Shown here: piece by piece, positions 1,837 to 55,938 of the stretch
How the letters are laid out: each line of letters starts with the position of its first letter
Position numbering within the stretch: position 1 is the stretch's first letter
Assembly (NCBI GenBank): GCA_964583105.1
Contig: CAZOUV010000001.1
Location: 65,617 to 129,616, forward strand
Length of the DNA stretch: 64,000 nucleotides
Direction of reading: 5' to 3'
From: an uncultured Gammaproteobacteria bacterium
GTDB lineage: Bacteria; Patescibacteriota; Microgenomatia; UBA8517
Notes under the pieces: generated by a model
The model's database searches: none
Told to the model about the DNA's origin: nothing
What the model saw: the letters and a program-made list of their open reading frames with translations, nothing else
Made by a program: the position numbers and the translations under genes

Positions 1837-3300
1837 GTGGAAGGCGAAATTGAGATAAATACGGTCAAAAGCCGTGCCGTAAGAGGTGTAGTTACCTTAA
1901 CCGGCAGAACCTTACTTTTAAATCTTATCTCTTTTGTTTCTCAAGGCCTTCTTTGGCTTTTTTTAAACCCCTCCCAATTCGGTACCTTTTTAATCGTTTC
2001 GGCAACAGTAAATTTTTTATCATATTTTGCCGACATTGGTTTGGGAGCGGCTCTTATTCAAAAGAAGGAAGTTCCCCAAGAGGTTGATTACAGAACCGTA
2101 TTTACTGTTCAGGAAATACTGGTAACAACAATCTTGGTTATAATTTTTCTTTTGGGCCCGACACTTACAAAAACACACTCCCTAACTCACGAGGGACTTA
2201 TGCTTTTATATGCCTTGGGAGGATCTTTTTTCTTAGCTTCTCTTAAAAATATTCCTTCGATTATGCTTGAAAGAAAACTGGAGTTTGGAAAATTTGTAAT
2301 TCCTCAGGTTTTGGAAAATATGGTTTACAGTATCTGCGTTGTTTTTTTTGCATGGAAAGGATTTGGTATTACAAGCTTTACCTATTCAGTTCTTATAAGG
2401 GGAGTCGTGGGTTTGGTTGCAATATACGTTCTTAATCCTTGGAAGCCTATGGTCGGTTTTTCCCTTAATTCTTTTAAAAATCTTATTAAATTTGGAATTC
2501 CCTACCAGTTAAATAATTTTTTGGCAACTCTTAAGGATGACGGTATGACAATTGTTTTGGGGGGAATTTTGGGGACTGCCGGAATAGGAATTTTAGGAAC
2601 GGCTCAAAAACTTGCCCAGTATCCTTTAAGGTTTTTCATGGATAATGTAACTAAAGTAACCTTTCCCGCATTTTCCCGGATGCAGGAAAATAGAGAAGAA
2701 CTTTCAAGAACTCTTTCCAGATCAATATTTTTTATTTGCTCCCTTGTCTTTCCTGCCCTTATTGGTCTTATCATAGTTTTTCCTAATATCATTGAGGCAA
2801 TTCCAAAGTATACGAAGTGGTCTCCTGTTTATCCTGTTTTGATATTTTTGGCGGTAAATTCTTTTTGGGCGGCAGCAACAACCCAGCTTACAAATTTTCT
2901 TAATGCGGTGGGGAAAATTAAAACCACCTTTAAGTTGATGATTATGTGGACTGCTCTTACCTGGGCTATGGTTCCTTTTTTTTCCAAATATTGGGGAGTA
3001 ACCGGAGCAGGAATTTCCTATATGATAATAGGATTTAGTTCGGCAATTGTCTTTTATATAGTTAAAAAACATATAGACTGGAAAATAGGTTATTCGGTAG
3101 GAATGCCTCTTATCTCGTCTTTGGCAATGGGTCTTATAATTTATATTGTTCAAAACTCACTTCGGGTTGGAGGATACAAAGAACTTATTGTTTTGGTTCT
3201 TCTTGGTCTAATTTTTTACTTTGGCTTTTTATATCTTCTTGTAGGAAGCTCATTAAGCGAAGATGTTAAAAAATCTGTTAAAACGTTTTTGGGAAAGTAG
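1837..3300 (+). CDS. wzx: Wzx-like oligosaccharide flippase (MOP superfamily polysaccharide biosynthesis protein)
   Basis: GTG start; ~12-14 TM; N-terminal 'RGVVTLTGRTLLLNLISFVSQGLLWLFLNPSQFG...GLGAALIQ' typical of PF01943/PF13440 flippases. Confidence 0.65.
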   Translation: MEGEIEINTVKSRAVRGVVTLTGRTLLLNLISFVSQGLLWLFLNPSQFGTFLIVSATVNFLSYFADIGLGAALIQKKEVPQEVDYRTVFTVQEILVTTILVIIFLLGPTLTKTHSLTHEGLMLLYALGGSFFLASLKNIPSIMLERKLEFGKFVIPQVLENMVYSICVVFFAWKGFGITSFTYSVLIRGVVGLVAIYVLNPWKPMVGFSLNSFKNLIKFGIPYQLNNFLATLKDDGMTIVLGGILGTAGIGILGTAQKLAQYPLRFFMDNVTKVTFPAFSRMQENREELSRTLSRSIFFICSLVFPALIGLIIVFPNIIEAIPKYTKWSPVYPVLIFLAVNSFWAAATTQLTNFLNAVGKIKTTFKLMIMWTALTWAMVPFFSKYWGVTGAGISYMIIGFSSAIVFYIVKKHIDWKIGYSVGMPLISSLAMGLIIYIVQNSLRVGGYKELIVLVLLGLIFYFGFLYLLVGSSLSEDVKKSVKTFLGK

Positions 3301-4978
3301 ATTAATTATTACCCTTATACTTTTAGGAAGCATAATCTGGTCTTTGACTATGGTAAGAAGTGGGTTGGTAACGCCAACCGGTATGGGATTTTGGGGAGCT
3401 AGTGGACATGACGGAGTTTGGCACATTGCTCTTGCCAATCAGTTAACCCAGTTTCCTTTCAAAAATCCCGTTTTTTCCGGAACATTTCTTCAGAACTATC
3501 ATTTCGGTTTCGATTTACTCATGGCATTTATTAATCTGGAAACGGGAATTTCTTTAAAAAATCTCTATTTTCAAATTCTTCCCCCGATTTTTGCATTCTT
3601 AATAGGTTTTTTAACTTATAAATTTGTTAAGTTATTGACCAAATCCAAAAAATCTGCATTTTGGTCTGCATTTTTTGTTTATTTCGGAGGAGGTTTGGGT
3701 TGGCTTGTCACCTTCTTAAGAAACGGAAAGTTTGACGGAGAAAGCATGTTTTGGTCACATCAGGCAATTTCAACTTTAGTCAATCCTCCATTTGCTCTTT
3801 CTTTGATTTTTATTCTTTCCGGACTTATTTTTCTTTTGAAATATAAAAAAAATAATAAGCCGTATTTATTGATATTGTCATCAATATTTTTTGGTCTTCT
3901 TATTGAAATAAAAGTCTATGCTGGGATTTTGGTTTTAGCGGGGCTTTTTATATCTTCTTTGTGGAGAGTTTTTAAAGAAAAGAAAAAAGATATTCTTTTT
4001 GTGTTTTTGATTTCACTGACAATCTCTCTGTTTTTGTTTTTTGAATTCGGCAGTAAAAATCCCCAAAGTTTAATCGTTTTTCAGCCCTTCTGGTTCTTGG
4101 AAACCATGATGGGCCTTAGCGACAGACTTGGATGGATTAAATTCCATTCGGCAATGACCACCTACAGAATGGGGGGGATTTGGATTAAGGCAATCTTGGC
4201 TTACGGGGTTGCTTTTATGATTTTTATTTTGGGAAACACGGGAACAAGAATTTTATTTATTAAGGAAGCTTTTAAAAAATATGATTCGACTAAAGTTTTT
4301 ATGTTAAGTGTAATTTTAACAGGTATTATAATTCCTACGTTTTTTTTGCAGAAGGGAACTCCGTGGAACACAATCCAGTTTTTTTATTATTCATTGTTTT
4401 TCTCTGCAATTTTAACAGGCATTGCGGTATCGCAGTTTAACAAGTATCTATTAACAGTTGTTGTACTGCTGACTCTCCCCACAACCATTGGAGCAATGAA
4501 GCATTATTTACCCAGAAATCCACCTGCTTTTCTTTCACCTTTAGAAATTGAAGCCTTAAATTTTTTAAAGAATGAGCCTAAGGGAGTGGTTTTAACATTT
4601 CCGTTTGATTCAATTAAGGCAAGAGAGGCGGAAGTTAATCCCCCAAGACCTTTATATTTATACGATTCAACCGCATACGTTTCGGCCTTTTCCGAAAAAA
4701 TTACTTTTCTGGAAGATCAGGTAAATTTGGATATAACAGGGTACAACTGGAAAGAGAGACTTGATGATATTAATAAATGGTACAAAGAACCAAATTTACA
4801 AAAAGCCAGAGAGTTTTTGAAAGAAAACAGTATTAAATATATTTATTGGCTGAAAGGGGATAAACAATATCTTTACGCCACGGAACAAAGATCTTTTTTG
4901 GGAGAAACAGATTTGGTGATCGAAAAAATATTTGAGAATAAAGAAGTAGGCATTTACATGGTAAAATCAGAGATATGA
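3263..4978 (+). CDS. Large polytopic membrane protein, 'GHDG-WHIAL' family (putative GT-C-like glycosyltransferase/polymerase); paralog of 22320-24152
   Basis: Shared motifs with the minus-strand gene 22320-24152: 'GASGHDGVWHIALANQ...FKNPVFSGTFLQNYHF' vs 'SAHGHDGTWHIALMEE...FENPIFAGEKLVNYHF', 'GGESMFW..Q..S...NPP' and a C-terminal 'YNW' domain. Confidence 0.5.
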   Translation: MLKNLLKRFWESRLIITLILLGSIIWSLTMVRSGLVTPTGMGFWGASGHDGVWHIALANQLTQFPFKNPVFSGTFLQNYHFGFDLLMAFINLETGISLKNLYFQILPPIFAFLIGFLTYKFVKLLTKSKKSAFWSAFFVYFGGGLGWLVTFLRNGKFDGESMFWSHQAISTLVNPPFALSLIFILSGLIFLLKYKKNNKPYLLILSSIFFGLLIEIKVYAGILVLAGLFISSLWRVFKEKKKDILFVFLISLTISLFLFFEFGSKNPQSLIVFQPFWFLETMMGLSDRLGWIKFHSAMTTYRMGGIWIKAILAYGVAFMIFILGNTGTRILFIKEAFKKYDSTKVFMLSVILTGIIIPTFFLQKGTPWNTIQFFYYSLFFSAILTGIAVSQFNKYLLTVVVLLTLPTTIGAMKHYLPRNPPAFLSPLEIEALNFLKNEPKGVVLTFPFDSIKAREAEVNPPRPLYLYDSTAYVSAFSEKITFLEDQVNLDITGYNWKERLDDINKWYKEPNLQKAREFLKENSIKYIYWLKGDKQYLYATEQRSFLGETDLVIEKIFENKEVGIYMVKSEI

Positions 4979-5832
4979 TATCGGTAGTTATAAATACACT
5001 AAACGACGAAGCACAAATTGCCCGTGCAATTGTCTCCGTAAAATCCTTGGCCGATGAAATTGTTCTTTGCGACATGGAATCGTCCGATAAAACAGTGGAG
5101 ATTGCAGAAAAACACGGAGCAAAAGTCTTTTCCCACAAAAAGGAAAGTTACGTTGAACTTGTTAGAAATTTTATGATTTCAAAAGCAGGTGGAGATTGGA
5201 TACTGATTTTGGATCCGGATGAAGAGATATCTTCGAAGCTTTCTTCAAAATTGAAAGAAATTGTTAAGAAAAACGAAGCCGATTATTACAGAATCCCAAG
5301 AAAAAATATTATTTTCGGAAAGTGGATGAAACATACCAACTGGTGGCCTGATTACAATATCCGATTTTTTAAGAAGGGGTTTGTTTCATGGAGCGAGGTT
5401 ATTCATGCCGTGCCTATGACTCAAGGGAAAGGTATGGATCTTCCCGAAAAAGAAGACAATGCAATCATTCATCATAACTATGAAAGCATTGATCAGTATT
5501 TCGAAAAAATGCTTCGCTATACCGAAGCACAGAAAGACAATCTCCTAAAAGGTGGCTATGTTTTTTCATGGAAGGATTTGATTAAAAAACCTCTGGGGGA
5601 GTTTTTGACTAGGTTTTTTTCGGCGGAAGGATTTAAAGACGGGGTTCACGGACTTATCCTTTCTTTGCTTCAGGCTTTTTCTGAACTTACCCTTTATGTC
5701 AAAATCTGGCAGAAACAGGGCTCAAGTGAAAAAGATTTGAGAAGAAGCGAACTTAGGGAAGAATTTAAAAAAGCAACCAAGGATGTAAAGTGGTGGGTAT
5801 CTAAAAAACTATCATGGCTAAAGTTTCTTTAA
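4975..5832 (+). CDS. Family 2 glycosyltransferase (LPS-core-type GT2 subfamily)
   Basis: N-terminal 'ISVVINTLNDE', 'ILDPDEEI' DxD-type motif, 'GKWMKHTNWWPDYNIRFF'; ATGA overlap with upstream gene; paralogous to 6722 and 32985. Confidence 0.7.
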   Translation: MISVVINTLNDEAQIARAIVSVKSLADEIVLCDMESSDKTVEIAEKHGAKVFSHKKESYVELVRNFMISKAGGDWILILDPDEEISSKLSSKLKEIVKKNEADYYRIPRKNIIFGKWMKHTNWWPDYNIRFFKKGFVSWSEVIHAVPMTQGKGMDLPEKEDNAIIHHNYESIDQYFEKMLRYTEAQKDNLLKGGYVFSWKDLIKKPLGEFLTRFFSAEGFKDGVHGLILSLLQAFSELTLYVKIWQKQGSSEKDLRRSELREEFKKATKDVKWWVSKKLSWLKFL

Positions 5833-6734
5833 TAATCCTCAATTGGAACGCACGAAAATTGACCCAGAGCGAACTTGAAAATGTTTCAAAGTTAAAAACA
5901 GGCAGTCATGAAGTTGAATGTTTGGTTATAGACAACGGTTCAACAGATGATTCTTTGGAAAAGCTTTCTATCTATCAGCTTCCCAATATGAATTATAAAT
6001 TTATGGAAACCAACGAAAATTTGGGATATGCGGGAGGAAATAACGTGGGACTTAAACATTCTCTGAAAAACAATTTTGACTATACAATTTTATTAAATAA
6101 TGACGTTGTCCTGCCCGAAGACTTGATTATCAAACTTGTCGATATTGCCGAAAAGGACAAAAAAATAGGACTTCTTTCCCCAAAAATGTATTTTGCCAAA
6201 GGCTATGAATTTCATAAAGACAGATATAAAGAAGAAGACTTGGGAAAAGTTATCTGGTTTGCGGGGGGAGTTATGGATTGGAAAAACATGTATACAGATC
6301 ACAGGGGAGTTGATGAAGTAGATAGCGGACAATACAACGAGGAAGCGGAAGTAGACAGTATAAACGGGGCATGCCTTCTTATGAGAAACAAGCTAATTAG
6401 CGATATTGGTTTACTTAAGGAGAAGTATTTTATGTATTGGGAGGACGCAGACTATTCAATTAGAGCAAAAAAAGCCGGATGGAAAGTCTTATACACCCCC
6501 GAAACCTTTATCTGGCACAAAGTATCTTCTTCATCTGCGGTGGGAAGTAATCTAAACGATTATTTTTTAACCAGAAACAGACTTGATTTTGGTTTAAGGT
6601 ATGCTCCTTTTAGAACAAAGCTGGCTTTAGTTAGAGAAAGTCTGAAATTTTTAGTTAATGGGAGAAGTTGGCAGAAAATCGGGGTCCGTGATTATTATCT
6701 TGGAAGGTGGGGTAAGGGATCATGGGGAAAATAA
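5814..6734 (+). CDS. Family 2 glycosyltransferase (rhamnosyltransferase-like GT2)
   Basis: 'VSLIILNWNARKLT...LVIDNGSTDDS', 'YWEDADYSIRAKKAGWKVLYTPETFIWHK' typical GT2 (WbbL-like) signatures. Confidence 0.7.
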   Translation: MAKVSLIILNWNARKLTQSELENVSKLKTGSHEVECLVIDNGSTDDSLEKLSIYQLPNMNYKFMETNENLGYAGGNNVGLKHSLKNNFDYTILLNNDVVLPEDLIIKLVDIAEKDKKIGLLSPKMYFAKGYEFHKDRYKEEDLGKVIWFAGGVMDWKNMYTDHRGVDEVDSGQYNEEAEVDSINGACLLMRNKLISDIGLLKEKYFMYWEDADYSIRAKKAGWKVLYTPETFIWHKVSSSSAVGSNLNDYFLTRNRLDFGLRYAPFRTKLALVRESLKFLVNGRSWQKIGVRDYYLGRWGKGSWGK

Positions 6735-7438
6735 AAATTTCGGCAATAGTTCTTATTGGAGGAAACTACGACAAAGAGCTTCTTAAAAAGTGTCTTAAAT
6801 CTTTGGAGTGGACTGATGAGATAGTAAAGGTGGAAAGCGAAAATATCCAAGGAAGTTTTTCTGAATGGAGAAATTACGGTGCAAAAAAAGCCTTGGGGGA
6901 ATGGCTTTTCTATGTTGATGCGGATGAGGAAGTAACACCTAAATTAAGGGAGGAAGTTCGGAGACAAATTCTTGAGGGAAAGTATCCTGCCTACGCAATT
7001 CCCAGAACAAACATTTTATTGGGAAAAAGAATGCGCTTTGGTGGGTGGAGTCCGGATTATGTTTTAAGGCTTATTAGGAAAGAGGTATTAGTCAAATGGG
7101 AAGGAAAACTTCACGAACAGCCGGTTATAAAAGGAGAAATCGGAAAATTAAAACAGCCTTTAATTCACAGATCCCACAGGAGTTTGACGGAAATGGTTGA
7201 AAAAACAAATGCATGGTCCGAAATCGAAGCAGATCTTTTATATAAATCGGGCCATCCCAAAATGAATATTTTCAGGTTTTGTTCAGCTGGTTTCAGGGAA
7301 TTTTGGCACAGGGGAATTGTTAAACTCGGATTTCTGGATGGAACAGTAGGGGTAATTGAAGTAATCTATCAGGTTTTCAGTAGGTTAATTACCTATTCCA
7401 AATTATGGGAAAAACAGTTAAAAAAGGAGACAATATAA
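6722..7438 (+). CDS. Family 2 glycosyltransferase (paralog of 4975 and 32985)
   Basis: 'ISAIVLIGGNYDKELLKKCLKSL', 'FYVDADEEV', 'KRMRFGGWSPDYVLRL'. Confidence 0.65.
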   Translation: MGKIKISAIVLIGGNYDKELLKKCLKSLEWTDEIVKVESENIQGSFSEWRNYGAKKALGEWLFYVDADEEVTPKLREEVRRQILEGKYPAYAIPRTNILLGKRMRFGGWSPDYVLRLIRKEVLVKWEGKLHEQPVIKGEIGKLKQPLIHRSHRSLTEMVEKTNAWSEIEADLLYKSGHPKMNIFRFCSAGFREFWHRGIVKLGFLDGTVGVIEVIYQVFSRLITYSKLWEKQLKKETI

Positions 7439-7803
7439 AAAAAATATACTATCGAAAATTAGTCAGGGATAAAATTCCTCAAAGGATAAAAGAATCAGGA
7501 GGAAGGTTTGAAATAAAAGCCTTATCCCAAATTGATTACAAAAAATATCTATTGGAAAAGGTAAGTGAAGAAGCGAGTGGAATATCTTTAGCAAAAAGCA
7601 GAAAGGAAGTAGCTAGCGAGATGGGGGATTTATTGGATGTTTTGGAAGAGGTGAAGACTCATTTTAAGATTAAACCTGAGGATTTAAAAGAATCAAGACA
7701 GAAAGAATTTCAAAGAAAAGGGGGCTTTAAGAAAAAAATATTTTTGATTTGGGCAGAAGATACGGGATATAAAACAAACGAAAAGAGGGGAAAAGCAAAA
7801 TGA
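7405..7803 (+). CDS. MazG-like nucleoside triphosphate pyrophosphohydrolase (all-alpha NTP-PPase)
   Basis: 'YRKLVRDKIPQRI' matches the conserved KLVRD(K/R)IPE motif of the MazG/HisE-like NTP-PPase family; 132 aa, acidic helical remainder. Confidence 0.45.
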   Translation: MGKTVKKGDNIKKIYYRKLVRDKIPQRIKESGGRFEIKALSQIDYKKYLLEKVSEEASGISLAKSRKEVASEMGDLLDVLEEVKTHFKIKPEDLKESRQKEFQRKGGFKKKIFLIWAEDTGYKTNEKRGKAK

Positions 7804-8822
7804 AAGCTGCAATATTCAATCCCTATTTAGATACCCTAGGTGGCGGTGAACGATATACACTTTCCTTTGCCAAGGTTTTGGCAGATAAAGGATATGTTGT
7901 GGACGTTGAGTGGAAAGACGGCTCAATAAGAGAAAAGCTTGAAGATAGATTGGGAATTGATTTATCCAAGATTAATTTTGTAAACGATGTTAAAAGGGGT
8001 TCGGGCTACGACCTTTGCTTTTGGGTATCGGACGGAAGCATTCCACTTCTTCACTCAAAGAAAAATATATTGCACTTCCAGGTTCCCTTTCATGACGTGG
8101 ACGGTAAAACTCTTTTTAATAAAATGAAACTTTTTAGAATAAATGAAGTTGTCTGTAATTCTAAATTTACCAAGGAGGTAATTGATAAAGAATTTGGAAT
8201 AGAAGGTACAGTTCTTTATCCGCCAGCGGATTTATTAAAAATAAGACCCAGAAGAAAAGAAGATATTATTTTGTATGTCGGAAGATTTTCGGAACTTGTC
8301 AGATCCAAAAGACAGGATATTCTGGTAGATGCGTTTAAGAAATTCTCCAAGGTTTTTCCCTTGTGGAAGATGATATTGGTAGGGGGAAGCGATGTGGGAG
8401 GAGGGGAGTTTGTGGAAAAATTGAAAGAAAAATCCAAAAATTACAACATTGAAATAGTTCAGGGGATAAGCTATTCCAACCTTCTCGATTTATACGGCAA
8501 AGCAAGATTTTTTTGGTCTGCAGCAGGATATGGAATAAACGAAAAACTTCATCCCGAACAGGTAGAACATTTTGGAATAACTACCGTTGAGGCTATGGCG
8601 GCAGGTGCCGTTCCTCTGGTATATAATGCCGGAGGGCAGAAAGAGATAATTAAAAACGGAGTTAGCGGTTATTTGTGGAATTCTGTTAATGAACTTGTAA
8701 AAATAACATCAGAATTAATTAAAAACAAATCGCATTTGGTTAAACTTTCCAAAGAGGCTAGATTAAGATCAGAAAATTTTAGTCAGGATTTATTTGAAAA
8801 AAATGTTTCTAATCTAATTTAA
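7800..8822 (+). CDS. GT4 (family 1-type, GT-B fold) glycosyltransferase
   Basis: C-terminal 'FGITTVEAMAAGAVPLVYNAGGQKEII' E-x7-E-like nucleotide-sugar binding motif; ~340 aa. Confidence 0.7.
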   Translation: MKAAIFNPYLDTLGGGERYTLSFAKVLADKGYVVDVEWKDGSIREKLEDRLGIDLSKINFVNDVKRGSGYDLCFWVSDGSIPLLHSKKNILHFQVPFHDVDGKTLFNKMKLFRINEVVCNSKFTKEVIDKEFGIEGTVLYPPADLLKIRPRRKEDIILYVGRFSELVRSKRQDILVDAFKKFSKVFPLWKMILVGGSDVGGGEFVEKLKEKSKNYNIEIVQGISYSNLLDLYGKARFFWSAAGYGINEKLHPEQVEHFGITTVEAMAAGAVPLVYNAGGQKEIIKNGVSGYLWNSVNELVKITSELIKNKSHLVKLSKEARLRSENFSQDLFEKNVSNLI

Positions 8823-8823
8823 G

Positions 8824-10350
8824 ATGAATAAAATTTTACAAAATACATTTAAGAAAAAAAGAGTATTTACTTTTTTACTTGTGATTATTTTTGTTCTTGC
8901 CTTTATCTTGAGGACAATGTTTTTGTTCAAAAACTCTCTTACTTTTGGTTACGATCAGGCAAGAGATGCGATTATATCCCAATCCATTCTTAATGGAGAT
9001 TTAAAGATTCAGGGACCTTCTGCTTCCACCCCCGGTCTTTATCACGGAGTTTTTTATTATTATCTTTTGGCACCTAGTTATTTAATAGGTTCCGGCAGCC
9101 CCGTTGCGGCGGCTTATTGGATTGCTTTTTTAAATTCCCTAACCGTATTTATAGTTTTTTATCTAGGCTTTCTGTTTACTAAAAAGCCCTGGATGGGAAT
9201 TTTAGCCTCTTTCCTGTTTGCAATTTCTTTTGAGGCAACCCAATATGCAACCTGGCTTTCTAATCCGACAATTGCCGTTTGGACGGTACCTTTAATTTAT
9301 CTTGGACTATGGTTATGGATTTCCGGAAGAGGCAAAATCGGTTCGGTTGTTGCGGCTTTGGGTTTCGGGCTTTCCATTCAATCCGAAATTTTTCTTCTTT
9401 ATCACATTATCCCGATTTGCATTTGGCTTTGGATAAGCCGCAAAGACATAAAAAGAAAACAAATATTTACATTTGCTTTTTGGTTTATAGCCGCAGTCAG
9501 CACAATGATTTTGGTTGAGTTTAAATTTGGCTTCAGAAGCATTCAGGGTTTTAAAACACTTGCACTGGGTGGGGAAACCAATCTTGCATATGCAAAATCA
9601 ATCGGGGATTATTTAATTCTTTACCTTAATCAGATAGGAAGAATATTTGCATTTAATCTGTACCCGGGAAATATCGGTTGGGGAGGAGCCGTAGTAATAA
9701 TTCTTGGAATATATTCTTTGATTAAAAAAAATAAAGTGGGAGCGTTTTTGGCAACATGGCTCTTTGCACATATTTGGGTAGTTACCGTCGGAGGAACAAG
9801 TACGCCCTTTTTAATGGTTGGAATAGGTCCCGCGGTGTCACTAATTGTTGCCTACTATCTTTTGAAATTTAAGTCATGGATTCCCATGGTTTTAATAGTT
9901 CTTGTAATAGTCTTCGGAAATATATCCATGATTTTAAAAGAAAACCCTAAAGGCTCGACCTTGTTTTCGATTCAAAAAGACATGCTTTTAAGTAAACAAA
10001 TGCAGGTTATAGATTACACCTATAAAGAGGCCAATGGAGATGAATTTAGTATCAATACACTTACTTCTCCTCTTTGGATAAATATTGTCTGGAGTTACCT
10101 ATATAAATGGTATGGTTTGCCTAAATACGGATATCTACCTTCTTTCCATGGACATGATCAGGTAGGCCAGATTGATTCACTGGTTCAAGTATCTCAACCC
10201 GCCAAAACCTCGTTTTTGATTATTGAGCCGATGGCGGGAATCCCTCCCCAGTATCTTGATTTGACGGTGGGAGAAGAAGATGTGGAAAGCAAACTTATAG
10301 ATGAGACAAGTTTCGGTGAACTTCGTGTTCAGAAACGTTTCGTAAAATGA
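8824..10350 (+). CDS. GT-C-like polytopic membrane glycosyltransferase (ArnT/PMT-related, divergent)
   Basis: N-terminal TM then 'FGYDQARDAI' acidic loop motif, ~11 TM, C-terminal soluble domain. Confidence 0.45.
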   Translation: MNKILQNTFKKKRVFTFLLVIIFVLAFILRTMFLFKNSLTFGYDQARDAIISQSILNGDLKIQGPSASTPGLYHGVFYYYLLAPSYLIGSGSPVAAAYWIAFLNSLTVFIVFYLGFLFTKKPWMGILASFLFAISFEATQYATWLSNPTIAVWTVPLIYLGLWLWISGRGKIGSVVAALGFGLSIQSEIFLLYHIIPICIWLWISRKDIKRKQIFTFAFWFIAAVSTMILVEFKFGFRSIQGFKTLALGGETNLAYAKSIGDYLILYLNQIGRIFAFNLYPGNIGWGGAVVIILGIYSLIKKNKVGAFLATWLFAHIWVVTVGGTSTPFLMVGIGPAVSLIVAYYLLKFKSWIPMVLIVLVIVFGNISMILKENPKGSTLFSIQKDMLLSKQMQVIDYTYKEANGDEFSINTLTSPLWINIVWSYLYKWYGLPKYGYLPSFHGHDQVGQIDSLVQVSQPAKTSFLIIEPMAGIPPQYLDLTVGEEDVESKLIDETSFGELRVQKRFVK

Positions 10351-11006
10351 CGCCTGCGTCAGGAAGTGTTAGAATTCCTAAAATGAAAAAGAAACAGACT
10401 CCTTTTAATTGGTATGATGAATCCATAAAAGTGGATTTTTTCCAAAGATTTTGGCACAGAACAAGATTTAGTCAGGTATCCAAGGCAGTAGAACCCGTTA
10501 AAGGTATAGTTTTAGATGTAGGATGCAATGACGGGACCTTTTCCAAGGTGATTTTTGACAAAACAAAGGCAAAAAGACTAATAGGTATCGACATAGAAAA
10601 AGATCCGATTCTCTGGGCAAGCAAACATCAAAAAATAGTTGGTTTAAGTTTTCAGACAGGAGATGCCGAAAACTTGAAATTTAAATCCAATTACTTTGAT
10701 GCGGTTTTTTGTCTGGAGGTATTGGAGCATGTTAAAAATCCCCTAAAGACGCTTCAGGAGTTAAAAAGAGTAATGAAAAAGGGTGGTTATGGAATCTTTT
10801 TAGTTCCATCCGACAGCCTCCTTTTTAGAATAATATGGTTTATTTGGTTGAATTTTTACCCTCGAGGCTGGGTATGGAGAGAAACTCATATACAAACTTA
10901 TAGGGGCAGTTATTTGCCTAAAGTTTGCAGAAAAGCCGGTTTTAAGGTCGAGAAGGACAAAAAATTTAATCTGGGCATGCTACACTTAGTAAAAGTAAGA
11001 AAATAA
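10347..11006 (+). CDS. Class I SAM-dependent methyltransferase (Methyltransf_11-like)
   Basis: 'VLDVGCNDGTFS' SAM motif I, 'FDAVFCLEVLEHVKNP' motif; ATGA overlap with upstream. Confidence 0.7.
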   Translation: MTPASGSVRIPKMKKKQTPFNWYDESIKVDFFQRFWHRTRFSQVSKAVEPVKGIVLDVGCNDGTFSKVIFDKTKAKRLIGIDIEKDPILWASKHQKIVGLSFQTGDAENLKFKSNYFDAVFCLEVLEHVKNPLKTLQELKRVMKKGGYGIFLVPSDSLLFRIIWFIWLNFYPRGWVWRETHIQTYRGSYLPKVCRKAGFKVEKDKKFNLGMLHLVKVRK

Positions 11007-11010
11007 CAAA

Positions 11011-11898
11011 ATGAAAGCTTCAATAATTATTCCTAACTTTAATGGAGAAAAGTTGTTGGCCCAAAACTTACCATTTCTGCTTAAGGCAATGGAAAATGGG
11101 GAAAATAAAATTGCCGAGATTATTGTTGTGGATGACGGTTCTTGGGATGGAAGCGTTAAACTTATTAAAACCAAATTTCCCCAGATTAAATTGATTAAAC
11201 ATACTAAAAACAGAGGTTTTTCCGCTTCTGTAAATACCGGAGCAAGAGCCGCAAAGGAAAAGTTAATAGTTTTACTTAATAGCGATGTTGTTCCAAGTGA
11301 AGATTTTTTATCAAGGACACTAAATTTATTTGAGGACAAAAATCTTTTTGCAGTTTCTATGCATGAACAAGGCTATGGTTGGGCAAAAGGAACCTTTAGT
11401 GACGGTTTTGTGGGGCTTGCCATGGGTGAAGAAGGAAATTCTGTTTTACCCAGCTTCTATGTAAGCGGGGGAAGCGGAGTATTTAAAAGAGAGATTTGGA
11501 TGGAGCTTGGGGGAATGGACGAAAAACTTCTTTCCCCTTTCTATTGGGAAGATATCGATATTTGCTACAGAGCTTTAAAAAGGGGATACTTGGTTGTTTG
11601 GAATCCCGAAGCAAAAGCGGTCCATAATCATGAATCTACTATCGGAAAATTGCCGAAAAAATTAGTTGCAAGAATTAGGGAAAGAAACCAGCTTATATTT
11701 ATTTGGAAAAATATTACAAGCAAGAACCTTACAAGAAAGCATTTTGCGGGACTTGCAAAAAGGTTTATTAAGCATCCCGGCTATCTAAGAATTATATTTA
11801 TGGCTTTGGCTAAATTGGGACTAATTATTAAAGCCAGAAAAAAAGAAGCCAAAGAATCGAAAGTGTCCGATGAAGCGATTTTTTCGAGATTTAATTAA
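11011..11898 (+). CDS. Family 2 glycosyltransferase
   Basis: 'ASIIIPNFNGEKLL...IIVVDDGSWDGS', 'LNSDVV', 'YWEDIDICYRALKRGY'. Confidence 0.7.
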   Translation: MKASIIIPNFNGEKLLAQNLPFLLKAMENGENKIAEIIVVDDGSWDGSVKLIKTKFPQIKLIKHTKNRGFSASVNTGARAAKEKLIVLLNSDVVPSEDFLSRTLNLFEDKNLFAVSMHEQGYGWAKGTFSDGFVGLAMGEEGNSVLPSFYVSGGSGVFKREIWMELGGMDEKLLSPFYWEDIDICYRALKRGYLVVWNPEAKAVHNHESTIGKLPKKLVARIRERNQLIFIWKNITSKNLTRKHFAGLAKRFIKHPGYLRIIFMALAKLGLIIKARKKEAKESKVSDEAIFSRFN

Positions 11899-11903
11899 TA
11901 ATT

Positions 11904-12734
11904 ATGGGAAAACTTCTTTCAATTGTTATAGCAAGTTTCAATACCAAGAGCCTTACACTGGGTTCTATAAATTCGGTTATTAAATCTAACCCCAAGGTGG
12001 ATTATGAAATTGTGGTTGTTGATGATGCATCATCCGATGGAAGTGCCGAGGCTTTAAAAGAAGTTGTTGAAAAAAATAAAAACATAAAATTACTCATAAA
12101 CAAAGAGAATTTGGGTTATGTCGGAACCAACAATAAAGGAATTAAAAAATCGTCTGGAAAATACATACTTCTTTTAAATTCCGATACGGTAGTTAAAAAT
12201 TCAGCACTGGATTCCTTGGTTGATTTTGCCGAAAACCATAATGATGCAGGAGTTGTCGGAGCAAGGCTTTTAAATCCCGACGGATCGGTACAGGCTTCCT
12301 GCTACCGTCTGCCGACAATTAAAAATGCGATATTAGAATATTGGTTTGGGAAAAAAGGACTTTTCGAAAAATATATTCCTTCGGGAGAAAATTATAGGGA
12401 AGTGGAAGCCTTGGTCGGAGCAGCTTTTTTAATTACTCCCAAGGCTTTGCAAAAGGTAGGAATGTTAAATACTGCCTACAAATCTTATTTTGAGGATTTG
12501 GATTACTGCCGTGCGGTAGGAAAAGCAGGCTTAAAAGTATATTATTTACCCAAGGCGGAAATTTTTCATTATCACGGAGCCTCGTTTAGCAAGCTTGGGA
12601 ATGAAAAAAACCGTTGGAAAAAACTTATTCCCTCAAGCAAAATTTATCACGGTTTGTTTGGACATTACTTAATTAATGCTATCATTTGGATAGGTCAAAA
12701 ATGGGCATTAACAAAAAAAACATTGTTTGGATAA
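11904..12734 (+). CDS. Family 2 glycosyltransferase
   Basis: 'LSIVIASFNTKSLT...IVVVDDASSDGS', 'LLLNSDTVV', 'YFEDLDYCRAV'. Confidence 0.7.
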   Translation: MGKLLSIVIASFNTKSLTLGSINSVIKSNPKVDYEIVVVDDASSDGSAEALKEVVEKNKNIKLLINKENLGYVGTNNKGIKKSSGKYILLLNSDTVVKNSALDSLVDFAENHNDAGVVGARLLNPDGSVQASCYRLPTIKNAILEYWFGKKGLFEKYIPSGENYREVEALVGAAFLITPKALQKVGMLNTAYKSYFEDLDYCRAVGKAGLKVYYLPKAEIFHYHGASFSKLGNEKNRWKKLIPSSKIYHGLFGHYLINAIIWIGQKWALTKKTLFG

Positions 12735-21769: not shown

Positions 21770-22369
21770 ATGAGAAAAATGATTTGGTTTACAACAGCTT
21801 CGGTTTTGTTTGTAATTTTTATTTTCCCTGCAATTATGGCTTTGACTATTAAGATGATTCCCGCGAAAGATCAACCTGGCTACGGTCCCAAAAGAATTTC
21901 TGTTTACGGAATAAAGGAACTTAGTCAGAAGTTTGTATCCTTAGAAAAAAATCTTACTGCAATAGGAACAACCGTTAAAAATCCAAACTTAAAAAATAAA
22001 AAAGAGGTGATCCTTGATTTGTATGATGTCAGCGGAAACTTGGTTAGAACCTCTATTCTAAACGGTTTCAATATAGGTGACGGAGATTTTGTTAAATTTG
22101 TTTTCGATGTCATACCCGATTCCGTGAACAAGGAATACAGACTCAGATTATCTTCTCCGACAGCAGGTGCCGACGAGATAGTAGAAGTTTTTTTAATGGA
22201 TAATCCAACGCCGGAAATTATTGAATATACTTTTGCTGAAGAAACATATCAGGGTGGAATTCCTTTGGTTACTTTTCATAAACCGGAAAATAAATGGGAA
22301 GTAATAAGAAGAATATATTCTAGTTGGCTTTCCAGACTTCTATTTCCCCGTTCTCAAAAAACAAAGTAA
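21770..22369 (+). CDS. Membrane-anchored hypothetical protein (N-terminal TM, extracytoplasmic beta-rich domain)
   Basis: ATG start; one N-terminal TM helix; no recognisable motif; its 3' end overlaps the convergent gene by ~50 nt. Confidence 0.4.
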   Translation: MRKMIWFTTASVLFVIFIFPAIMALTIKMIPAKDQPGYGPKRISVYGIKELSQKFVSLEKNLTAIGTTVKNPNLKNKKEVILDLYDVSGNLVRTSILNGFNIGDGDFVKFVFDVIPDSVNKEYRLRLSSPTAGADEIVEVFLMDNPTPEIIEYTFAEETYQGGIPLVTFHKPENKWEVIRRIYSSWLSRLLFPRSQKTK

Positions 22370-24152
22370 GACCAATAGTTTCGGGATTAACTTTCGGTCG
22401 TAGTATTTTTGGAAAATAGAGAATTTTCGAACGGGATTGCAGGAGAGTATCTTTTACATATTCTGGATCCGTACTTTCGAAAATAACTTTTTTAACTTCT
22501 TCCCTGGGTCTCCAGTTATAGTTCATAATATCTGCTTGTTCATAATCGTCAAAATATGTTCTTCTGGCGGATATGGCGGAGACATATGACGTATCAAACC
22601 AGTCCCAGATGTTGGGAGTTGCCCCTTCAAGATAAAGATATTGATTGTATGGTGGTGTAATAATTGTGGTTTCAACGGAAGTATTGGTTTTAATAAACTG
22701 CAGGGCTTCTATTTCGGATGATGATATTTTGGCAAAAGCAGGTCTTGAATAAAATTCAAGTAAAAGACCTATTTGCGTTGGGATCATTAAAATAATAATT
22801 ACAGGTATTAGGAATTTTACCTTAGCAGTAATTTTAGCTGTTGTAATTCCCGCTAAGATTCCGAAAAGAAGAACAAAATACTGCAGAAATTGACTGGAAT
22901 TTGAGGCAACTCCTTTTTGTAAAAACAAAAGAGGAAGAGTAAGTGAAATGACAATTATAGATTTAAAAATGATATGGGATTTTAGAAAATCCCAAAGCCC
23001 TATAAATCTCATACCTAAATTACCGAAGAAGAATATTAAAAAACCTATTCCTTCTAGCCAGATAACACGTTTCCAGTTATGTTCATAAATATATGTTTGA
23101 CGCCTTAATTCCCAATCAAGAAGGTTAAGTCGTGAGGGTTCAACAATCATGGTGCGTATATACCACCATGGTTGAAAGATTAAAAACGAAGCCGAACCTG
23201 AAGTGTTGGGTAAATAGATAATTGCTGCCAACATTCCGCTTGTTAGGGCCAGTAAAAGCAATTGAAATCTTTTTTCTTTAATAACCTGCCATACTCCGGC
23301 AATTCCCAAACCCGCAAAAACCACAACGGCGGCATAGACCTTAAAAGAAACAAGGCTTCCTGTTAGTATCGTGCAGATTAGAAAAAGAATTCTTTTTTGC
23401 AATTTAGCCTTTTGCTCTACCAGTAAAATTACAAAATAAATTATTGCTAGAACCAAAAAGTCGGAGATAATTTGAGGCGGGTTACCGCTTGCACTTTGGG
23501 GTTGGGTCGCCCAGAAAATACTTTCTCCTCCGATTGTTTTATTTTTAATATAGGTAACAATAAATCCGAAACTTCCCGCAAAATAAGTAAAAATCGTTGC
23601 CCAAAGGGAAGCGGAAAAATTTTTAGTAAGTTTTTTTGTGAGAAAAAATACTGAAGCTCCCAAGAAAAGGGAATAGAAAAAAGGAAAAATTCTAAAATAT
23701 AAATCAAAGTTTGAAATAGGCAGATATTTACTTACCATGGCGGGTAAAATGTCCGAGAAGAAATGATAATTAACCAGTTTTTCTCCCGCGAAGATCGGAT
23801 TTTCAAAAGGCCAGCCTTTTTTAATTTCTTCCATTAAGGCGATGTGCCAGGTTCCGTCATGACCGTGAGCACTCCAGAAAAGAATATCTCCGTTTTTAAA
23901 TATTCCGCTTGGGGAAATAACGGCAAGTTGACCCGCAATTCCCAGAGTAAATACTATTAAAACCAAAATTGTTTGAAGATTAAGTTTTATTTTTATTTGC
24001 CTGACAGTTTTAATCAGGGGTTTAATTGTTAACAACACTAAAATAATAAAAATTGGAATAATTAAGAAGGGAAGATTAAGAACTATCAAAAGATAGGAAA
24101 GAAGGGTTAAGGTTGTGAAAGCGGCAATTAACCCCATCAGTATTCTTTCCAT
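22320..24152 (-). CDS. Large polytopic membrane protein, 'GHDG-WHIAL' family (paralog of 3263-4978)
   Basis: Minus-strand ORF; TTG at 24156-24158, first ATG at 24150-24152; shared motifs with 3263-4978 (see above). Confidence 0.5.
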   Translation of the reverse strand: MERILMGLIAAFTTLTLLSYLLIVLNLPFLIIPIFIILVLLTIKPLIKTVRQIKIKLNLQTILVLIVFTLGIAGQLAVISPSGIFKNGDILFWSAHGHDGTWHIALMEEIKKGWPFENPIFAGEKLVNYHFFSDILPAMVSKYLPISNFDLYFRIFPFFYSLFLGASVFFLTKKLTKNFSASLWATIFTYFAGSFGFIVTYIKNKTIGGESIFWATQPQSASGNPPQIISDFLVLAIIYFVILLVEQKAKLQKRILFLICTILTGSLVSFKVYAAVVVFAGLGIAGVWQVIKEKRFQLLLLALTSGMLAAIIYLPNTSGSASFLIFQPWWYIRTMIVEPSRLNLLDWELRRQTYIYEHNWKRVIWLEGIGFLIFFFGNLGMRFIGLWDFLKSHIIFKSIIVISLTLPLLFLQKGVASNSSQFLQYFVLLFGILAGITTAKITAKVKFLIPVIIILMIPTQIGLLLEFYSRPAFAKISSSEIEALQFIKTNTSVETTIITPPYNQYLYLEGATPNIWDWFDTSYVSAISARRTYFDDYEQADIMNYNWRPREEVKKVIFESTDPEYVKDTLLQSRSKILYFPKILRPKVNPETIGLTLFFENGEIEVWKAN

Positions 24153-24176
24153 ACTCAAAGTATATATAATAATAGT
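24153..24176. promoter_or_regulatory. Divergent promoter region (TATATAAT) between 22320(-) and 24177(+)
   Basis: 24-nt AT-only gap 'actcaaagtatatataataatagt' between divergently oriented starts. Confidence 0.25.
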
Positions 24177-34587: not shown

Positions 34588-35580
34588 ATGCGAGTCGGAA
34601 TTGATCTTGGCGGAAGTCATGGTGGGCATGAAGAAAGAGGAATAGGAGTACATACAAACGAGCTATTTAATGCCCTTAAATCCTTAAAAAGTAAGGAAGT
34701 TGAAATATCAGAGTATAAACCCGGGAATAAATACGATCTTGTTCATTACACGGTATTTAAGCCTTTCAGTTTTTCGCTTCCTTTTAAAAAACCCGCCAAA
34801 AAAGTCGTTCTGACGATACATGATTTTATTCCTCTTATTTATCCCAAGCATTACCCTTCCGGAATTAAGGGAAAAATAATTTTTCTAATTCAGAAGTATC
34901 TTATTAAGAAAAATGTTGATGCGATAATTACCATTTCCGAGACATCCAAGAAAGATATCTGCAGGTTTTTGGGAGTTAGTCCTGAAAAAGTATATGTTAT
35001 CTACCTTGCACCAAAGAAGATATTTAAAAAAATAGAAGATGAGAAAGTAAAAAGGGAAATAATTGAAAAATACGATCTTCCTAAGAAATTTGTTCTTTAT
35101 GTCGGGGACGTAAATTACAACAAAAACATTCCCAATTTAATAAAAGCTGCAAAACTTGCCAAATTACCTTTGGTTATCTGTGGCAAGCAGGCAAAAGAAA
35201 TTGAAACAAAAGATCTTAATCATCCAGAACTTTTGCATTTGAAAAACATTGATTGGTCGGGTGTTTTAAGATTGGGTTTTGTTTCGGATGAAGACCTTGG
35301 TGTTATCTATAATTTGGCAACTGTTTATTGTCAGCCTTCTTTATATGAAGGTTTCGGACTTCCTGTTTTGGAGGCTTTATCTTGCGGCTGTCCCGTGGTT
35401 GCTTCCAAAACACAAGCATTGATTGAAATTGCCGAAGATTTAGGAGTTTTTGTTGACCCCAAAGATCCTATGGATATCGCCAAGGGCATAAATAATTTTG
35501 TAAGACCCTCAAAACCACCAAGAGAATATTCTTGGGAAAAAACTGCAAAAGAAACACGATCCCTCTATGAAAAAATCTGA
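34588..35580 (+). CDS. GT4 (GT-B) glycosyltransferase
   Basis: C-terminal 'EGFGLPVLEALSCGCPVVASK' motif; ~330 aa. Confidence 0.7.
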   Translation: MRVGIDLGGSHGGHEERGIGVHTNELFNALKSLKSKEVEISEYKPGNKYDLVHYTVFKPFSFSLPFKKPAKKVVLTIHDFIPLIYPKHYPSGIKGKIIFLIQKYLIKKNVDAIITISETSKKDICRFLGVSPEKVYVIYLAPKKIFKKIEDEKVKREIIEKYDLPKKFVLYVGDVNYNKNIPNLIKAAKLAKLPLVICGKQAKEIETKDLNHPELLHLKNIDWSGVLRLGFVSDEDLGVIYNLATVYCQPSLYEGFGLPVLEALSCGCPVVASKTQALIEIAEDLGVFVDPKDPMDIAKGINNFVRPSKPPREYSWEKTAKETRSLYEKI

Positions 35581-53453: not shown

Positions 53454-53459
53454 AGAATA

Positions 53460-55179: not shown

Positions 55180-55208
55180 TTGAGCCGATTGTATGGATAA
55201 AGCCGGAG

Positions 55209-55916: not shown

Positions 55917-55938
55917 TCGTGATATTATATTTCAAGTC

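What the first reader, a model, noticed from the sequence alone, without database searches (positions are those of the whole stretch)
3263..4978. Paralogous pair of large membrane proteins with a 'GHDG-x-WHIAL' signature on opposite strands (3263-4978 and 22320-24152)
Two 570-610 aa polytopic proteins share extended collinear motifs: 'G(A/S)(S/A)HGHDG.WHIAL', 'F.NP.F.G..L.NYHF', 'GGES.FW..Q..S...NPP', and a C-terminal 'D(S/T)(T/S)(A/Y)VSA(F/I)S...(T/Y)F..D....(D/N)I..YNW' domain. I do not recognise this His/Asp-rich signature from a named family. Its position in an extracytoplasmic loop of a multi-TM protein inside a glycan locus suggests a catalytic site, either metal- or phosphate-binding (polymerase, ligase or GT-C-like transferase).
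Basis: seen in the sequence. Interest (0 to 1): 0.6.

Follow-up and report, generated by a model that had tools for sequence, protein, structure and literature searches.

The report
Undescribed OST-like membrane glycosyltransferase pair
The two proteins are real paralogues of an unnamed family of membrane glycosyltransferases, shaped like the enzymes that attach ready-made sugar chains to proteins, and one of them sits in a gene cluster kept across a whole group of tiny uncultured bacteria, right next to the transporter that flips sugar chains across the membrane.

Summary
ORF A (3263-4978 +, 571 aa) and ORF B (22320-24158 -, 612 aa) are 32% identical over 509 residues (E 2e-84), and all four motifs are present in both.

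Neither protein, nor any of 77 diverse relatives, matches a Pfam family. No PDB sequence matches. The only named link is a weak match to TIGR03662 (Chlor_Arch_YYY) in 2 of 77 members.

An AlphaFold model of A (pLDDT 85) matches only GT-C glycosyltransferases with high probability. The oligosaccharyltransferase subunits STT3, AglB and PglB come first. The model has the GT-C_A layout:
- seven membrane helices;
- a first outer loop with two helices, the first carrying the invariant Asp50 of 'GHDG';
- a long fourth outer loop;
- four more helices and an outer C-terminal domain.

All strongly conserved residues lie on the predicted outer face. The OST hallmark WWDYG is absent.

The family has at least 1,700 clusters at 50% identity, and every named source is Patescibacteria/Microgenomates. 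In 58 of 71 related genomes a Wzx-type flippase lies directly upstream of A, and three GT2 genes and a GT4 gene follow. Some lineages fuse A to an outer hydrolase/deacetylase-like domain, and one protein also carries the flippase.

Best reading: an outward-facing GT-C transferase acting on a flipped lipid-linked glycan. Donor and acceptor are unknown. It is a new family of a known kind, of moderate interest.

The parts
3263..4978 (+). Paralogue A, 571 aa. Predicted 11-helix GT-C_A glycosyltransferase with an outer C-terminal alpha/beta domain (residues 416-571).
   Evidence: ORF; AF2 model pLDDT 85, pTM 0.88; Foldseek top hits STT3/AglB/PglB; 1477 homologues, none named.
3404..3433 (+). GHDGVWHIAL signature (residues 48-57). 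The Asp50 codon is 3410-3412. It lies in the first helix (47-61) of outer loop 1 and is the proposed catalytic base or metal ligand.
   Evidence: Sequence; D50 invariant and H54 98% in 77 diverse members; helix assignment; GT-C_A rule (PMC13503287).
22320..24158 (-). Paralogue B, 612 aa from TTG 24158 or 610 aa from ATG 24152. Same family, with two extra N-terminal membrane helices (13 predicted). GHDGTWHIAL is at residues 99-108, nt 23835-23864.
   Evidence: orthologues at 63-84% identity; conserved context.
1837..3300 (+). Wzx-type MOP flippase (Polysacc_synt_3), 487 aa. Its stop overlaps the start of A by 38 nt.
   Evidence: Pfam E 5e-50; NCBIfam MOP flippase, O-glycosylation flippase and TuaB, all below cut-off; directly upstream of A in 58 of 71 loci; fused with the family domain in P0156.
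4975..8822 (+). Three GT2 genes (4975-5832, 5814-6734, 6722-7438) and one GT4 gene (7800-8822), the conserved downstream partners of A. Presumed cytoplasmic assembly of the lipid-linked glycan.
   Evidence: Pfam; synteny in nearly all of 80 loci; first GT2 within 400 nt downstream in 62 of 75 loci.
8824..10350 (+). 508-aa membrane protein with no Pfam hit. It is a distant PMT_2-like GT-C and a frequent member of the operon.
   Evidence: hhalign against the window's PMT_2 paralogues: 94.5% probability, 291 columns; synteny.
10347..12734 (+). SAM methyltransferase (10347-11006) and two more GT2 genes (11011-11898, 11904-12734), frequent distal members of the operon.
   Evidence: Pfam; synteny.
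21770..22369 (+). 199-aa protein with an N-terminal membrane helix and no family hit. It is convergent with B, overlaps B's 3' end by 50 nt, and is a conserved neighbour of B orthologues.
   Evidence: found next to B at 56-57% identity in L010, L013 and L022; proteins of 191-207 aa at or near that position in L083 and L084.

Best explanation
A and B are paralogous members of an undescribed family of GT-C_A membrane glycosyltransferases whose overall architecture is closest to the oligosaccharyltransferase catalytic subunits.

Shown or predicted: the active site faces the outside of the cell.

Inferred:
- Asp50 (Asp101 in B), in the first helix of outer loop 1, acts as the catalytic base or metal ligand. 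His49, His54, Asn78-Tyr79-His80 and Glu160-Trp164 of outer loops 1 and 2 assist it.
- Basic and polar residues at the outer membrane boundary hold the phosphate(s) of a polyprenyl-linked donor. These are Lys217, Arg288 in the long fourth loop, Asn325/Arg329, and Asn369/Gln372.
- The last four helices and the C-terminal domain choose the acceptor.

For A, the donor is most likely the lipid-linked oligosaccharide built by the adjacent GT2 and GT4 enzymes and flipped by the translationally coupled Wzx-type flippase. A would then transfer it, probably en bloc, to an acceptor on the cell surface, either a protein or a wall polymer.

B would do the same chemistry on another donor or acceptor, within the neighbouring array of GT-C enzymes.
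For: Fold:
- The AF2 model is confident.
- All 21 Foldseek hits at E <= 1e-3 are GT-C enzymes. STT3 gives 6e-10 with TM 0.54, followed by AglB, PglB and DPY19.
- The isolated AglB C-terminal domain also matches, with probability 0.99.

Architecture: 7 helices, then a long outer loop, then 4 helices and an outer domain. Outer loop 1 has two helices, and the invariant Asp sits in the first. This is the published GT-C_A definition (PMC13503287).

Topology: cytoplasmic loops hold 3-4 Lys/Arg in 8-11 residues. All positions conserved at 80% or more lie in outer loops, at outer helix ends or in the C-terminal domain.

Coupling to the flippase:
- A's start overlaps the flippase stop by 38 nt here and in L001.
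- The flippase is adjacent in 58 of 71 loci and upstream in 12 more.
- One representative (P0156) carries flippase, X domain and family domain in a single 1639-aa chain.

Glycan substrate:
- All 40 representatives longer than 850 aa, of the 150 listed, carry an outer X domain. Its model matches glycoside hydrolase/deacetylase folds: 3lm3, CE4 enzymes including ArnD, and GH57.
- The operon encodes five GT2, one GT4 and a methyltransferase.

Retention: the gene is kept in complete genomes of about 0.8-0.9 Mb (L047, L062, L069).
Against: - No sequence-level link to any characterised enzyme. Pfam, NCBIfam above cut-off, and PDB profiles give nothing. hhalign against the window's own PMT_2 proteins gives only 50% probability.
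- TM-scores to OSTs are only about 0.5.
- The OST motif WWDYG is absent from all 77 members. A has 11 predicted helices, not 13.
- No priming phosphoglycosyl transferase was found in the 64-kb window, so the nature of the lipid-linked donor is not established.
- B has no flippase of its own.
- The flippase fusion is a single representative, and its DNA was not checked.
Confidence: 0.55

Rival explanations
1. Single-sugar GT-C transferase. Like ArnT, PMT, YfhO or archaeal AglS, A and B add one monosaccharide from a polyprenyl-monophosphate sugar to a surface glycan or protein. The flippase next to A serves the acceptor's own precursor, not A's donor.
For: Most GT-C_A enzymes work this way (PMC13503287). 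The window holds many short GT2 genes of the kind that make polyprenyl-P-sugars, beside at least 15 other GT-C genes. B sits inside such an array without a flippase. No priming phosphoglycosyl transferase for a pyrophosphate-linked oligosaccharide is in the window.
Against: The best structural matches are the en bloc transferases, not ArnT or PMT (Pmt4 only 6e-3; ArnT is not among the 50 matches listed). Wzx-type MOP flippases usually move oligosaccharide-carrying lipids, whereas monosaccharide carriers use small GtrA- or ArnE/F-type flippases (general knowledge). The adjacency, start-stop overlap and fusion tie A to the Wzx protein.
Confidence: 0.25
2. Glycan polymerase. A plays the Wzy role and joins flipped repeat units into a polymer, which a separate enzyme then attaches to the wall.
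For: Flippase and polymerase genes are classic partners in Wzx/Wzy loci. No Wzy_C or O-antigen-ligase Pfam hit exists in the window that could fill this role. The fused glycoside hydrolase/deacetylase-like domain suggests a polysaccharide product.
Against: No Wzy, WaaL or SEDS structure appears among the 50 fold matches listed. No chain-length regulator (Wzz) was found in the window. The C-terminal domain resembles that of an OST (3vu0_B).
Confidence: 0.12
3. Genuine N-oligosaccharyltransferase. A and/or B are highly diverged STT3/AglB/PglB orthologues that glycosylate Asn in N-x-S/T sequons.
For: The top fold matches are OSTs. The operon content (flippase, GT2s, GT4, a second GT-C, a methyltransferase) resembles archaeal agl and Campylobacter pgl clusters (from memory, not tested).
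Against: No Pfam STT3 match even at E <= 1. WWDYG is absent in all 77 members. A has 11 rather than 13 helices. Profile searches of PDB sequences find no OST.
Confidence: 0.05
4. Not an enzyme: a transporter, scaffold or anchor that merely shares an all-helical membrane fold.
For: No activity has been measured. Weak Foldseek hits to transporters exist.
Against: Those transporter hits have probability 0.04-0.16 and TM about 0.1, against probability 1.00 for GT-C enzymes. The invariant residues are polar or charged and all lie on the outer face, including an Asp at the canonical catalytic position.
Confidence: 0.03

Closest known systems
Oligosaccharyltransferase catalytic subunits STT3 / AglB / PglB (CAZy GT66, Pfam STT3)
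   Same: Best structural matches (8agb_A E 6e-10, 7e9s_A, 5ogl_A). GT-C_A membrane module with an acidic residue early in outer loop 1, a long flexible outer loop with conserved acidic and basic residues (FLET...DR), and a C-terminal outer alpha/beta domain (3vu0_B match). Encoded beside a flippase and cytoplasmic glycosyltransferases.
   Different: No detectable sequence similarity. No WWDYG motif. 11 predicted helices in A. A different signature set (GHDG.WH, NYH, GES.FW, QKG..WNTIQ). TM-score only about 0.5.
Other GT-C_A enzymes: DPY19 C-mannosyltransferase, PMT/Pmt4, PimE, EmbB, ArnT-like PMT_2 proteins (many in this window)
   Same: Shared fold, outer-face active site, and polyprenyl-linked donors as a class property (PMC13503287).
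   Different: Weaker structural matches than the OSTs. hhalign to the window's own PMT_2 paralogues gives only 50% probability over 88 columns. PMT_2 proteins carry a D-E type motif in loop 1 rather than GHDG.WH.
TIGR03662 Chlor_Arch_YYY domain (related to Pfam DUF2298), function unknown
   Same: The only named sequence family with any signal. A residues 308-568 match model positions 484-727 at E 1.8e-4. 2 of 77 members match, best E 4e-8. The shared part is the last four helices plus the C-terminal domain.
   Different: Scores are far below the curated cut-off (20 against 300 bits). 75 of 77 members do not match. No Pfam DUF2298 hit. That family is itself uncharacterised.
Wzy polymerases and WaaL/PglL ligases of Wzx-dependent pathways
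   Same: They hold the same place in the pathway logic: the outer-face enzyme that takes over the flipped lipid-linked glycan, encoded next to Wzx.
   Different: Different fold class. None appears among the 50 fold matches listed, and there is no Wzy_C Pfam hit.
Arn pathway (ArnC GT2, ArnD deformylase, ArnE/F flippase, ArnT GT-C)
   Same: In some lineages the family domain is fused to, or preceded by, a deacetylase-superfamily domain whose model matches ArnD among others (8t0j). The combination of GT2, flippase and GT-C is also shared.
   Different: The X domain is predicted to be outside the cell, whereas ArnD acts on the cytoplasmic face (general knowledge). The flippase here is Wzx-type. 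X is absent from this window.

Membership tests
GT-C_A glycosyltransferase fold class | Structural similarity to solved GT-C_A enzymes | tested here: met
   All 21 Foldseek hits at E <= 1e-3 are GT-C enzymes, with probability 1.00. The model has pLDDT 85.
GT-C_A glycosyltransferase fold class | N-terminal conserved module of seven membrane helices followed by a variable C-terminal module (PMC13503287) | tested here: met
   Model helices at 13-31, 98-126, 129-154, 175-197, 200-216, 218-239 and 243-262. Then loop 263-306, four helices (307-415) and an outer domain. This is a prediction, not an experiment.
GT-C_A glycosyltransferase fold class | First outer loop with two helices, the first carrying an acidic catalytic base | tested here: met
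   Helices 47-61 and 82-94 lie in loop 32-97. Asp50 is invariant in 77 members at 27-54% identity to A.
GT-C_A glycosyltransferase fold class | Uses a polyprenyl-phosphate-linked sugar donor | not testable with these tools
   Supported only by context: the adjacent Wzx flippase and GT2/GT4 genes.
Oligosaccharyltransferase STT3/AglB/PglB (GT66) | Match to the Pfam STT3 model, or to OST sequences in the PDB | tested here: not met
   No STT3 hit at E <= 1 and none in 77 members. PDB profile searches find no OST.
Oligosaccharyltransferase STT3/AglB/PglB (GT66) | WWDYG motif in the C-terminal outer domain | tested here: not met
   No W[WYF]D[YFW]G or WWD in any of 77 members. A has no WW at all.
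Oligosaccharyltransferase STT3/AglB/PglB (GT66) | Thirteen membrane helices | tested here: inconclusive
   A is predicted to have 11. B has two extra N-terminal hydrophobic segments, giving 13, but these are added before helix 1 (sequence).
Oligosaccharyltransferase STT3/AglB/PglB (GT66) | Acidic residues in outer loops 1, 2 and 5 that bind the metal (D56, D154/D156 and E319 in PglB; from memory) | tested here: inconclusive
   Candidates exist: D50, E160 (93%), and E280 (at least 90% within the close alignment A1; not among the positions conserved at 80% or more in the diverse set of 77). Equivalence could not be checked, because no structural superposition is available.
TIGR03662 Chlor_Arch_YYY | Score above the curated cut-off (300 bits) | tested here: not met
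   20.3 bits for A and none for B. 2 of 77 members match weakly.
PMT_2 / ArnT-like GT-C (Pfam PF13231) | Pfam match or profile-profile homology | tested here: not met
   No Pfam hit. hhalign probability 50% over 88 columns.
Wzy polymerase / WaaL ligase | Wzy_C Pfam match or similarity to the WaaL/SEDS-like fold | tested here: not met
   No Pfam hit and no such structure among the 50 Foldseek matches listed.

The most novel reading that the evidence does not exclude
The A family is the missing terminal enzyme of a surface glycosylation pathway universal to Microgenomates. On this reading it is an OST-like GT-C that has lost the N-sequon-reading WWDYG element. It works as a physical unit with its Wzx flippase, as suggested by the overlapping genes and, in at least one lineage, a single flippase-hydrolase-like-transferase polypeptide. 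The flipped lipid-linked oligosaccharide would then be handed directly from flippase to transferase and placed on a non-Asn acceptor, either a wall polymer or O-linked sites on a protein. That would be a new class of bacterial oligosaccharyltransferase with built-in substrate channelling.
Probability: 0.25. Interest if true: 0.7.

Novelty: new variant of a known kind. Interest (0 to 1): 0.45.

Why it matters
Microgenomates and other Patescibacteria are tiny, mostly uncultured, host-dependent bacteria, and their surface chemistry is essentially unknown. This family has no Pfam or curated NCBI model. It has at least 1,700 clusters at 50% identity and is kept, with its operon, in genomes under 1 Mb. 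That suggests the glycan it handles is central to their envelope or to host attachment.

Recognising the family as an OST-like GT-C with a defined candidate catalytic Asp gives three things:
- an annotation for thousands of 'hypothetical proteins';
- a concrete mutational target;
- a candidate new transferase for glyco-engineering.

The flippase-transferase fusion, if real, would be a natural test case for substrate hand-over between flipping and transfer.

Tried and rejected
- Sequence routes to a named family all failed. These were Pfam on A, B and 75 relatives, NCBIfam and PDB profile searches with 27- and 77-sequence alignments. The only PDB hits were chance matches to triose-phosphate isomerase at E > 1.
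- hhalign against the window's seven PMT_2 paralogues gave 50% probability, which is not usable.
- The X domain found in fused relatives was searched for in the window by tblastn at E <= 10 and is absent.
- No priming phosphoglycosyl transferase, Wzz or O-antigen-ligase domain was found in the 64 kb.
- Five literature searches found nothing on this family. The terms were Patescibacteria + oligosaccharyltransferase; GT-C + candidate phyla radiation; GT-C fold + AlphaFold; DUF2298; and Microgenomates + glycosyltransferase.
- The exact-sequence cluster look-up gave no names.
- The transporter and plain N-OST readings were considered and set aside for the reasons given under the rivals.
Full report
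OBSERVATION. ORF A (3263..4978 +, 571 aa) and ORF B (22320..24158 -, 612 aa from a TTG) are both present. BLASTP of one against the other gives 32% identity over 509 collinear residues, E = 2e-84. The four motif blocks are present in both, with trivial corrections: the shared core is GHDG.WHIAL, and A has 'DGES'. An HMM of the family finds only these two genes in six-frame translations of the window.

NO NAMED FAMILY. Pfam gives nothing for A or B at E <= 1 and nothing consistent for 77 diverse members. NCBIfam gives only a sub-threshold match of A's C-terminal half to TIGR03662, Chlor_Arch_YYY (20 bits against a cut-off of 300). That match is seen in 2 of 77 members, best E 4e-8. Profile searches of all PDB sequences find no relative. 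Five literature searches found nothing about the family.

SIZE AND RANGE OF THE FAMILY.
- 1477 homologues of A and 564 of B passed E <= 1e-3 among the word-sharing candidates.
- 1697 representatives at 50% identity were found in an exhaustive HMM scan, 917 of them at E <= 1e-30.
- Every source name is Patescibacteria: Woesebacteria, Microgenomates, Dojkabacteria, Blackburnbacteria, Amesbacteria, Shapirobacteria.
- Many records titled 'uncultured Gammaproteobacteria' share the same synteny as the Woesebacteria loci and are evidently mislabelled.
- The window has about 34-37% G+C.

FOLD. An AlphaFold2 model of A built on a 27-sequence alignment is confident (mean pLDDT 85, pTM 0.88). Foldseek against the PDB returns 21 hits at E <= 1e-3, all with probability 1.00 and all GT-C glycosyltransferases:
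- yeast and human STT3 (best 8agb_A, E 6e-10, TM 0.54);
- archaeal AglB;
- bacterial PglB;
- the DPY19 C-mannosyltransferase.

Pmt4, PimE and EmbB follow more weakly. The isolated C-terminal globular domain of an AglB (3vu0_B) also matches with probability 0.99. Transporter hits have probability of 0.16 or less. No Wzy, WaaL or SEDS structure appears among the 50 matches listed.

ARCHITECTURE. The secondary structure of the model fits the published definition of the GT-C_A class. That definition is a conserved N-terminal module of seven membrane helices, a first outer loop with two helices of which the first carries the catalytic base, a bridging fourth loop, and a variable C-terminal module (PMC13503287). 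In A:
- helices at 13-31, 98-126, 129-154, 175-197, 200-216, 218-239 and 243-262;
- outer loop 1 (32-97) with helices 47-61 and 82-94;
- a long loop at 263-306;
- four more helices up to residue 415;
- an alpha/beta domain at 416-571.

B has two additional hydrophobic segments before helix 1, followed by a Lys/Arg-rich loop. That keeps the same orientation (sequence).

TOPOLOGY AND CONSERVATION. The N-terminus and the short loops predicted to be cytoplasmic carry 3-4 Lys/Arg in 8-15 residues each. An exception is the last such loop, 387-396, which has one. This fits an N-in topology. In 77 representatives at 27-54% identity to A, the conserved positions are:
- invariant: G34, D50, Y79, H80, W164, N174, K217, N325, N369, Q372;
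- at least 90%: S33, W53, H54, P69, N78, E160, F163, Q167, P275, W277, G324, R329, Q363, G365, Y376, Y472, D485, Y528 and a few others.

None of the positions conserved at 80% or more lies in a predicted cytoplasmic loop. They cluster in outer loop 1 (15 positions), outer loop 2 (6), the one-residue loop at K217, outer loop 4, the outer ends of helices 8 and 10, and the C-terminal domain. Asp50 of GHDG sits in the first helix of loop 1, the canonical place for the GT-C_A catalytic base. The specific roles of the histidines, Glu160, Arg288, Lys217 and the Asn/Gln residues are inference only.

NOT A CANONICAL OST. WWDYG or any WWD is absent from all 77 members. There is no STT3 Pfam signal. A has 11 predicted helices rather than 13. 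I therefore do not file the family under GT66.

GENOMIC CONTEXT OF A. A's start codon overlaps by 38 nt the stop of a 487-aa Wzx-type MOP flippase. That protein matches Polysacc_synt_3 at E 5e-50. It also gives sub-threshold NCBIfam matches to the MOP flippase, O-glycosylation flippase and TuaB models. Downstream follow GT2, GT2, GT2, GT4, a 508-aa protein, a SAM methyltransferase and two more GT2 genes. The 508-aa protein is a distant PMT_2-like GT-C by hhalign (94.5%).

CONSERVATION OF THAT CONTEXT. The same order is found at 58% protein identity in L001, including the 38-nt overlap, and across 80 species-level genomes.
- In 58 of 71 loci with enough upstream DNA, the flippase is within 300 nt of the family gene.
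- In 12 more it lies 0.7-2.5 kb upstream.
- The first GT2 is within 400 nt downstream in 62 of 75 loci.
- The gaps are filled in at least four loci by an extra domain, X, and in L036 by a PMT_2-like GT-C plus a methyltransferase.

The gene is present in complete chromosomes of 0.8-0.9 Mb (L047, L062, L069).

FUSIONS. Forty of the best 150 representatives are longer than 850 aa. All 40 carry, N-terminal to the family domain, a membrane-anchored soluble domain X of about 430 aa. Hydropathy places X outside the cell, with the following loop (RNKLSEIRRKKAK in P0122) inside. That preserves the topology of the family domain. X also occurs as a stand-alone protein of about 675 aa in the same phylum, sometimes with a Pfam DUF3863 hit. 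Its AF2 model (pLDDT 81) matches 3lm3, a putative glycoside hydrolase/deacetylase, at E 3.5e-15. CE4 deacetylases follow, including peptidoglycan deacetylases and ArnD, and then GH57 and GH38 enzymes. One representative, P0156 (1639 aa), is flippase + X + family domain in one chain. Its flippase part is 50% identical to the window's flippase. X is absent from this window.

CONTEXT OF B. B orthologues (63-84% identity among the best 120) keep a fixed position. B is a lone gene on the opposite strand inside a long array of PMT_2, GT87-like and PTPS_related GT-C genes. It is convergent with a protein of about 200 aa that has no family hit, which here is 21770-22369. B has no flippase of its own.

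THE WINDOW AS A WHOLE. All 64 kb form a glycan island. It contains:
- at least 15 GT-C-type genes, about 17 GT2 and 5 GT4;
- two MOP flippases;
- methyltransferases;
- sugar dehydratase, epimerase, aminotransferase and C-methyltransferase genes;
- an MBOAT/AlgX-like pair.

No priming phosphoglycosyl transferase, Wzz or O-antigen-ligase domain was found.

MECHANISM (inferred). The cytoplasmic GT2 and GT4 enzymes, with the methyltransferase, build a glycan on a polyprenyl phosphate carrier. The Wzx-type protein flips it. A, made in step with the flippase and in some lineages joined to it, binds the carrier's phosphate(s) at the outer membrane boundary through K217, R288, N325/R329 and N369/Q372. 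It uses Asp50, helped by H49/H54, N78-Y79-H80 and E160, to activate the acceptor or hold a metal. It then transfers the glycan, most likely as a block, to an acceptor selected by helices 8-11 and the C-terminal domain.

I put about 0.85 on 'outward-facing GT-C glycosyltransferase' and about 0.45 on 'en bloc transfer of the flipped oligosaccharide'. The combined statement is scored 0.55. The main rivals are:
- a single-sugar transferase using a polyprenyl-monophosphate sugar (0.25);
- a Wzy-like polymerase role (0.12);
- a true but diverged N-OST (0.05);
- a non-enzyme (0.03).

The gene content of the operon resembles the archaeal agl and Campylobacter pgl clusters. That resemblance is from memory and was not tested.

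NOVELTY AND VERDICT. The fold class and the pathway logic are known. The family itself has no model in Pfam or NCBIfam and no characterised or solved relative detectable by sequence. Its motif set differs from every described GT-C family I could test. The tight flippase coupling and the fusions are unusual. I rate it a new variant of a known kind, of moderate interest (0.45). It is useful for annotating Patescibacteria and as an experimental target, but it is not a surprise in kind.

Noticed in passing
window 1-64000: The whole window is one glycan island: at least 15 GT-C-type genes (PMT_2/PMT, PTPS_related, YfhO-like, GT87, PIG-V-like), about 17 GT2 and 5 GT4. No priming phosphoglycosyl transferase, Wzz or O-antigen-ligase domain was found.
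   Followed up: partly
window 35567-38711: A second MOP flippase (36736-37983) sits between a PIG-V/GT87-like GT-C (35567-36748) and a GT2 (37980-38711). This is a second flippase + GT-C module of a different type.
   Followed up: no
window 61070-63607: An MBOAT acyltransferase is followed by an AlgX-like SGNH protein. This pair is typical of O-acylation of an extracytoplasmic polymer.
   Followed up: no
window 51829-58894: A cluster for a modified sugar: a C-methyltransferase (Methyltransf_13/14), a GDP-mannose-dehydratase-like enzyme, two GT2, two SAM methyltransferases and a DegT-type aminotransferase.
   Followed up: no
window 3263-3350: The NCBI protein for A (P0001, 542 aa) starts at Met30, which would delete the first membrane helix. 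Homologues align from residue 1 and G22/W26 are conserved, so the 3263 start is more likely.
   Followed up: partly
window 21770-22369: A 199-aa protein with one N-terminal membrane helix and no family hit. It is convergent with B, overlaps B's 3' end by 50 nt, and is conserved next to B orthologues in other genomes.
   Followed up: partly
relatives P0122-P0268; loci L042, L043, L070, L074, L082 (about 6000-7900 in L042, L043 and L074): An extracellular DUF3863-like glycoside hydrolase/deacetylase-fold domain is fused to, or encoded just before, the family gene in some lineages. It also exists as a common stand-alone protein of about 675 aa in Woesebacteria. It has only one invariant His, so it probably lacks the CE4 His-His-Asp metal site.
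   Followed up: partly
L036 5412-8004: In this Woesebacteria genome a PMT_2-like GT-C (580 aa) and a methyltransferase (293 aa) are inserted between the flippase and the A orthologue. This shows the operon is plastic.
   Followed up: no
loci L003, L007, L009, L010 and many others: Dozens of records titled 'uncultured Gammaproteobacteria bacterium' carry the same operon as named Woesebacteria/Microgenomates MAGs. The titles look like submitter placeholders, not real taxonomy.
   Followed up: no
L026 13466-17123; L027 14977-16701: Some genomes hold additional B-like copies (37-42% identity to B) a few kb downstream of A. The family therefore has more than two paralogous lineages.
   Followed up: no
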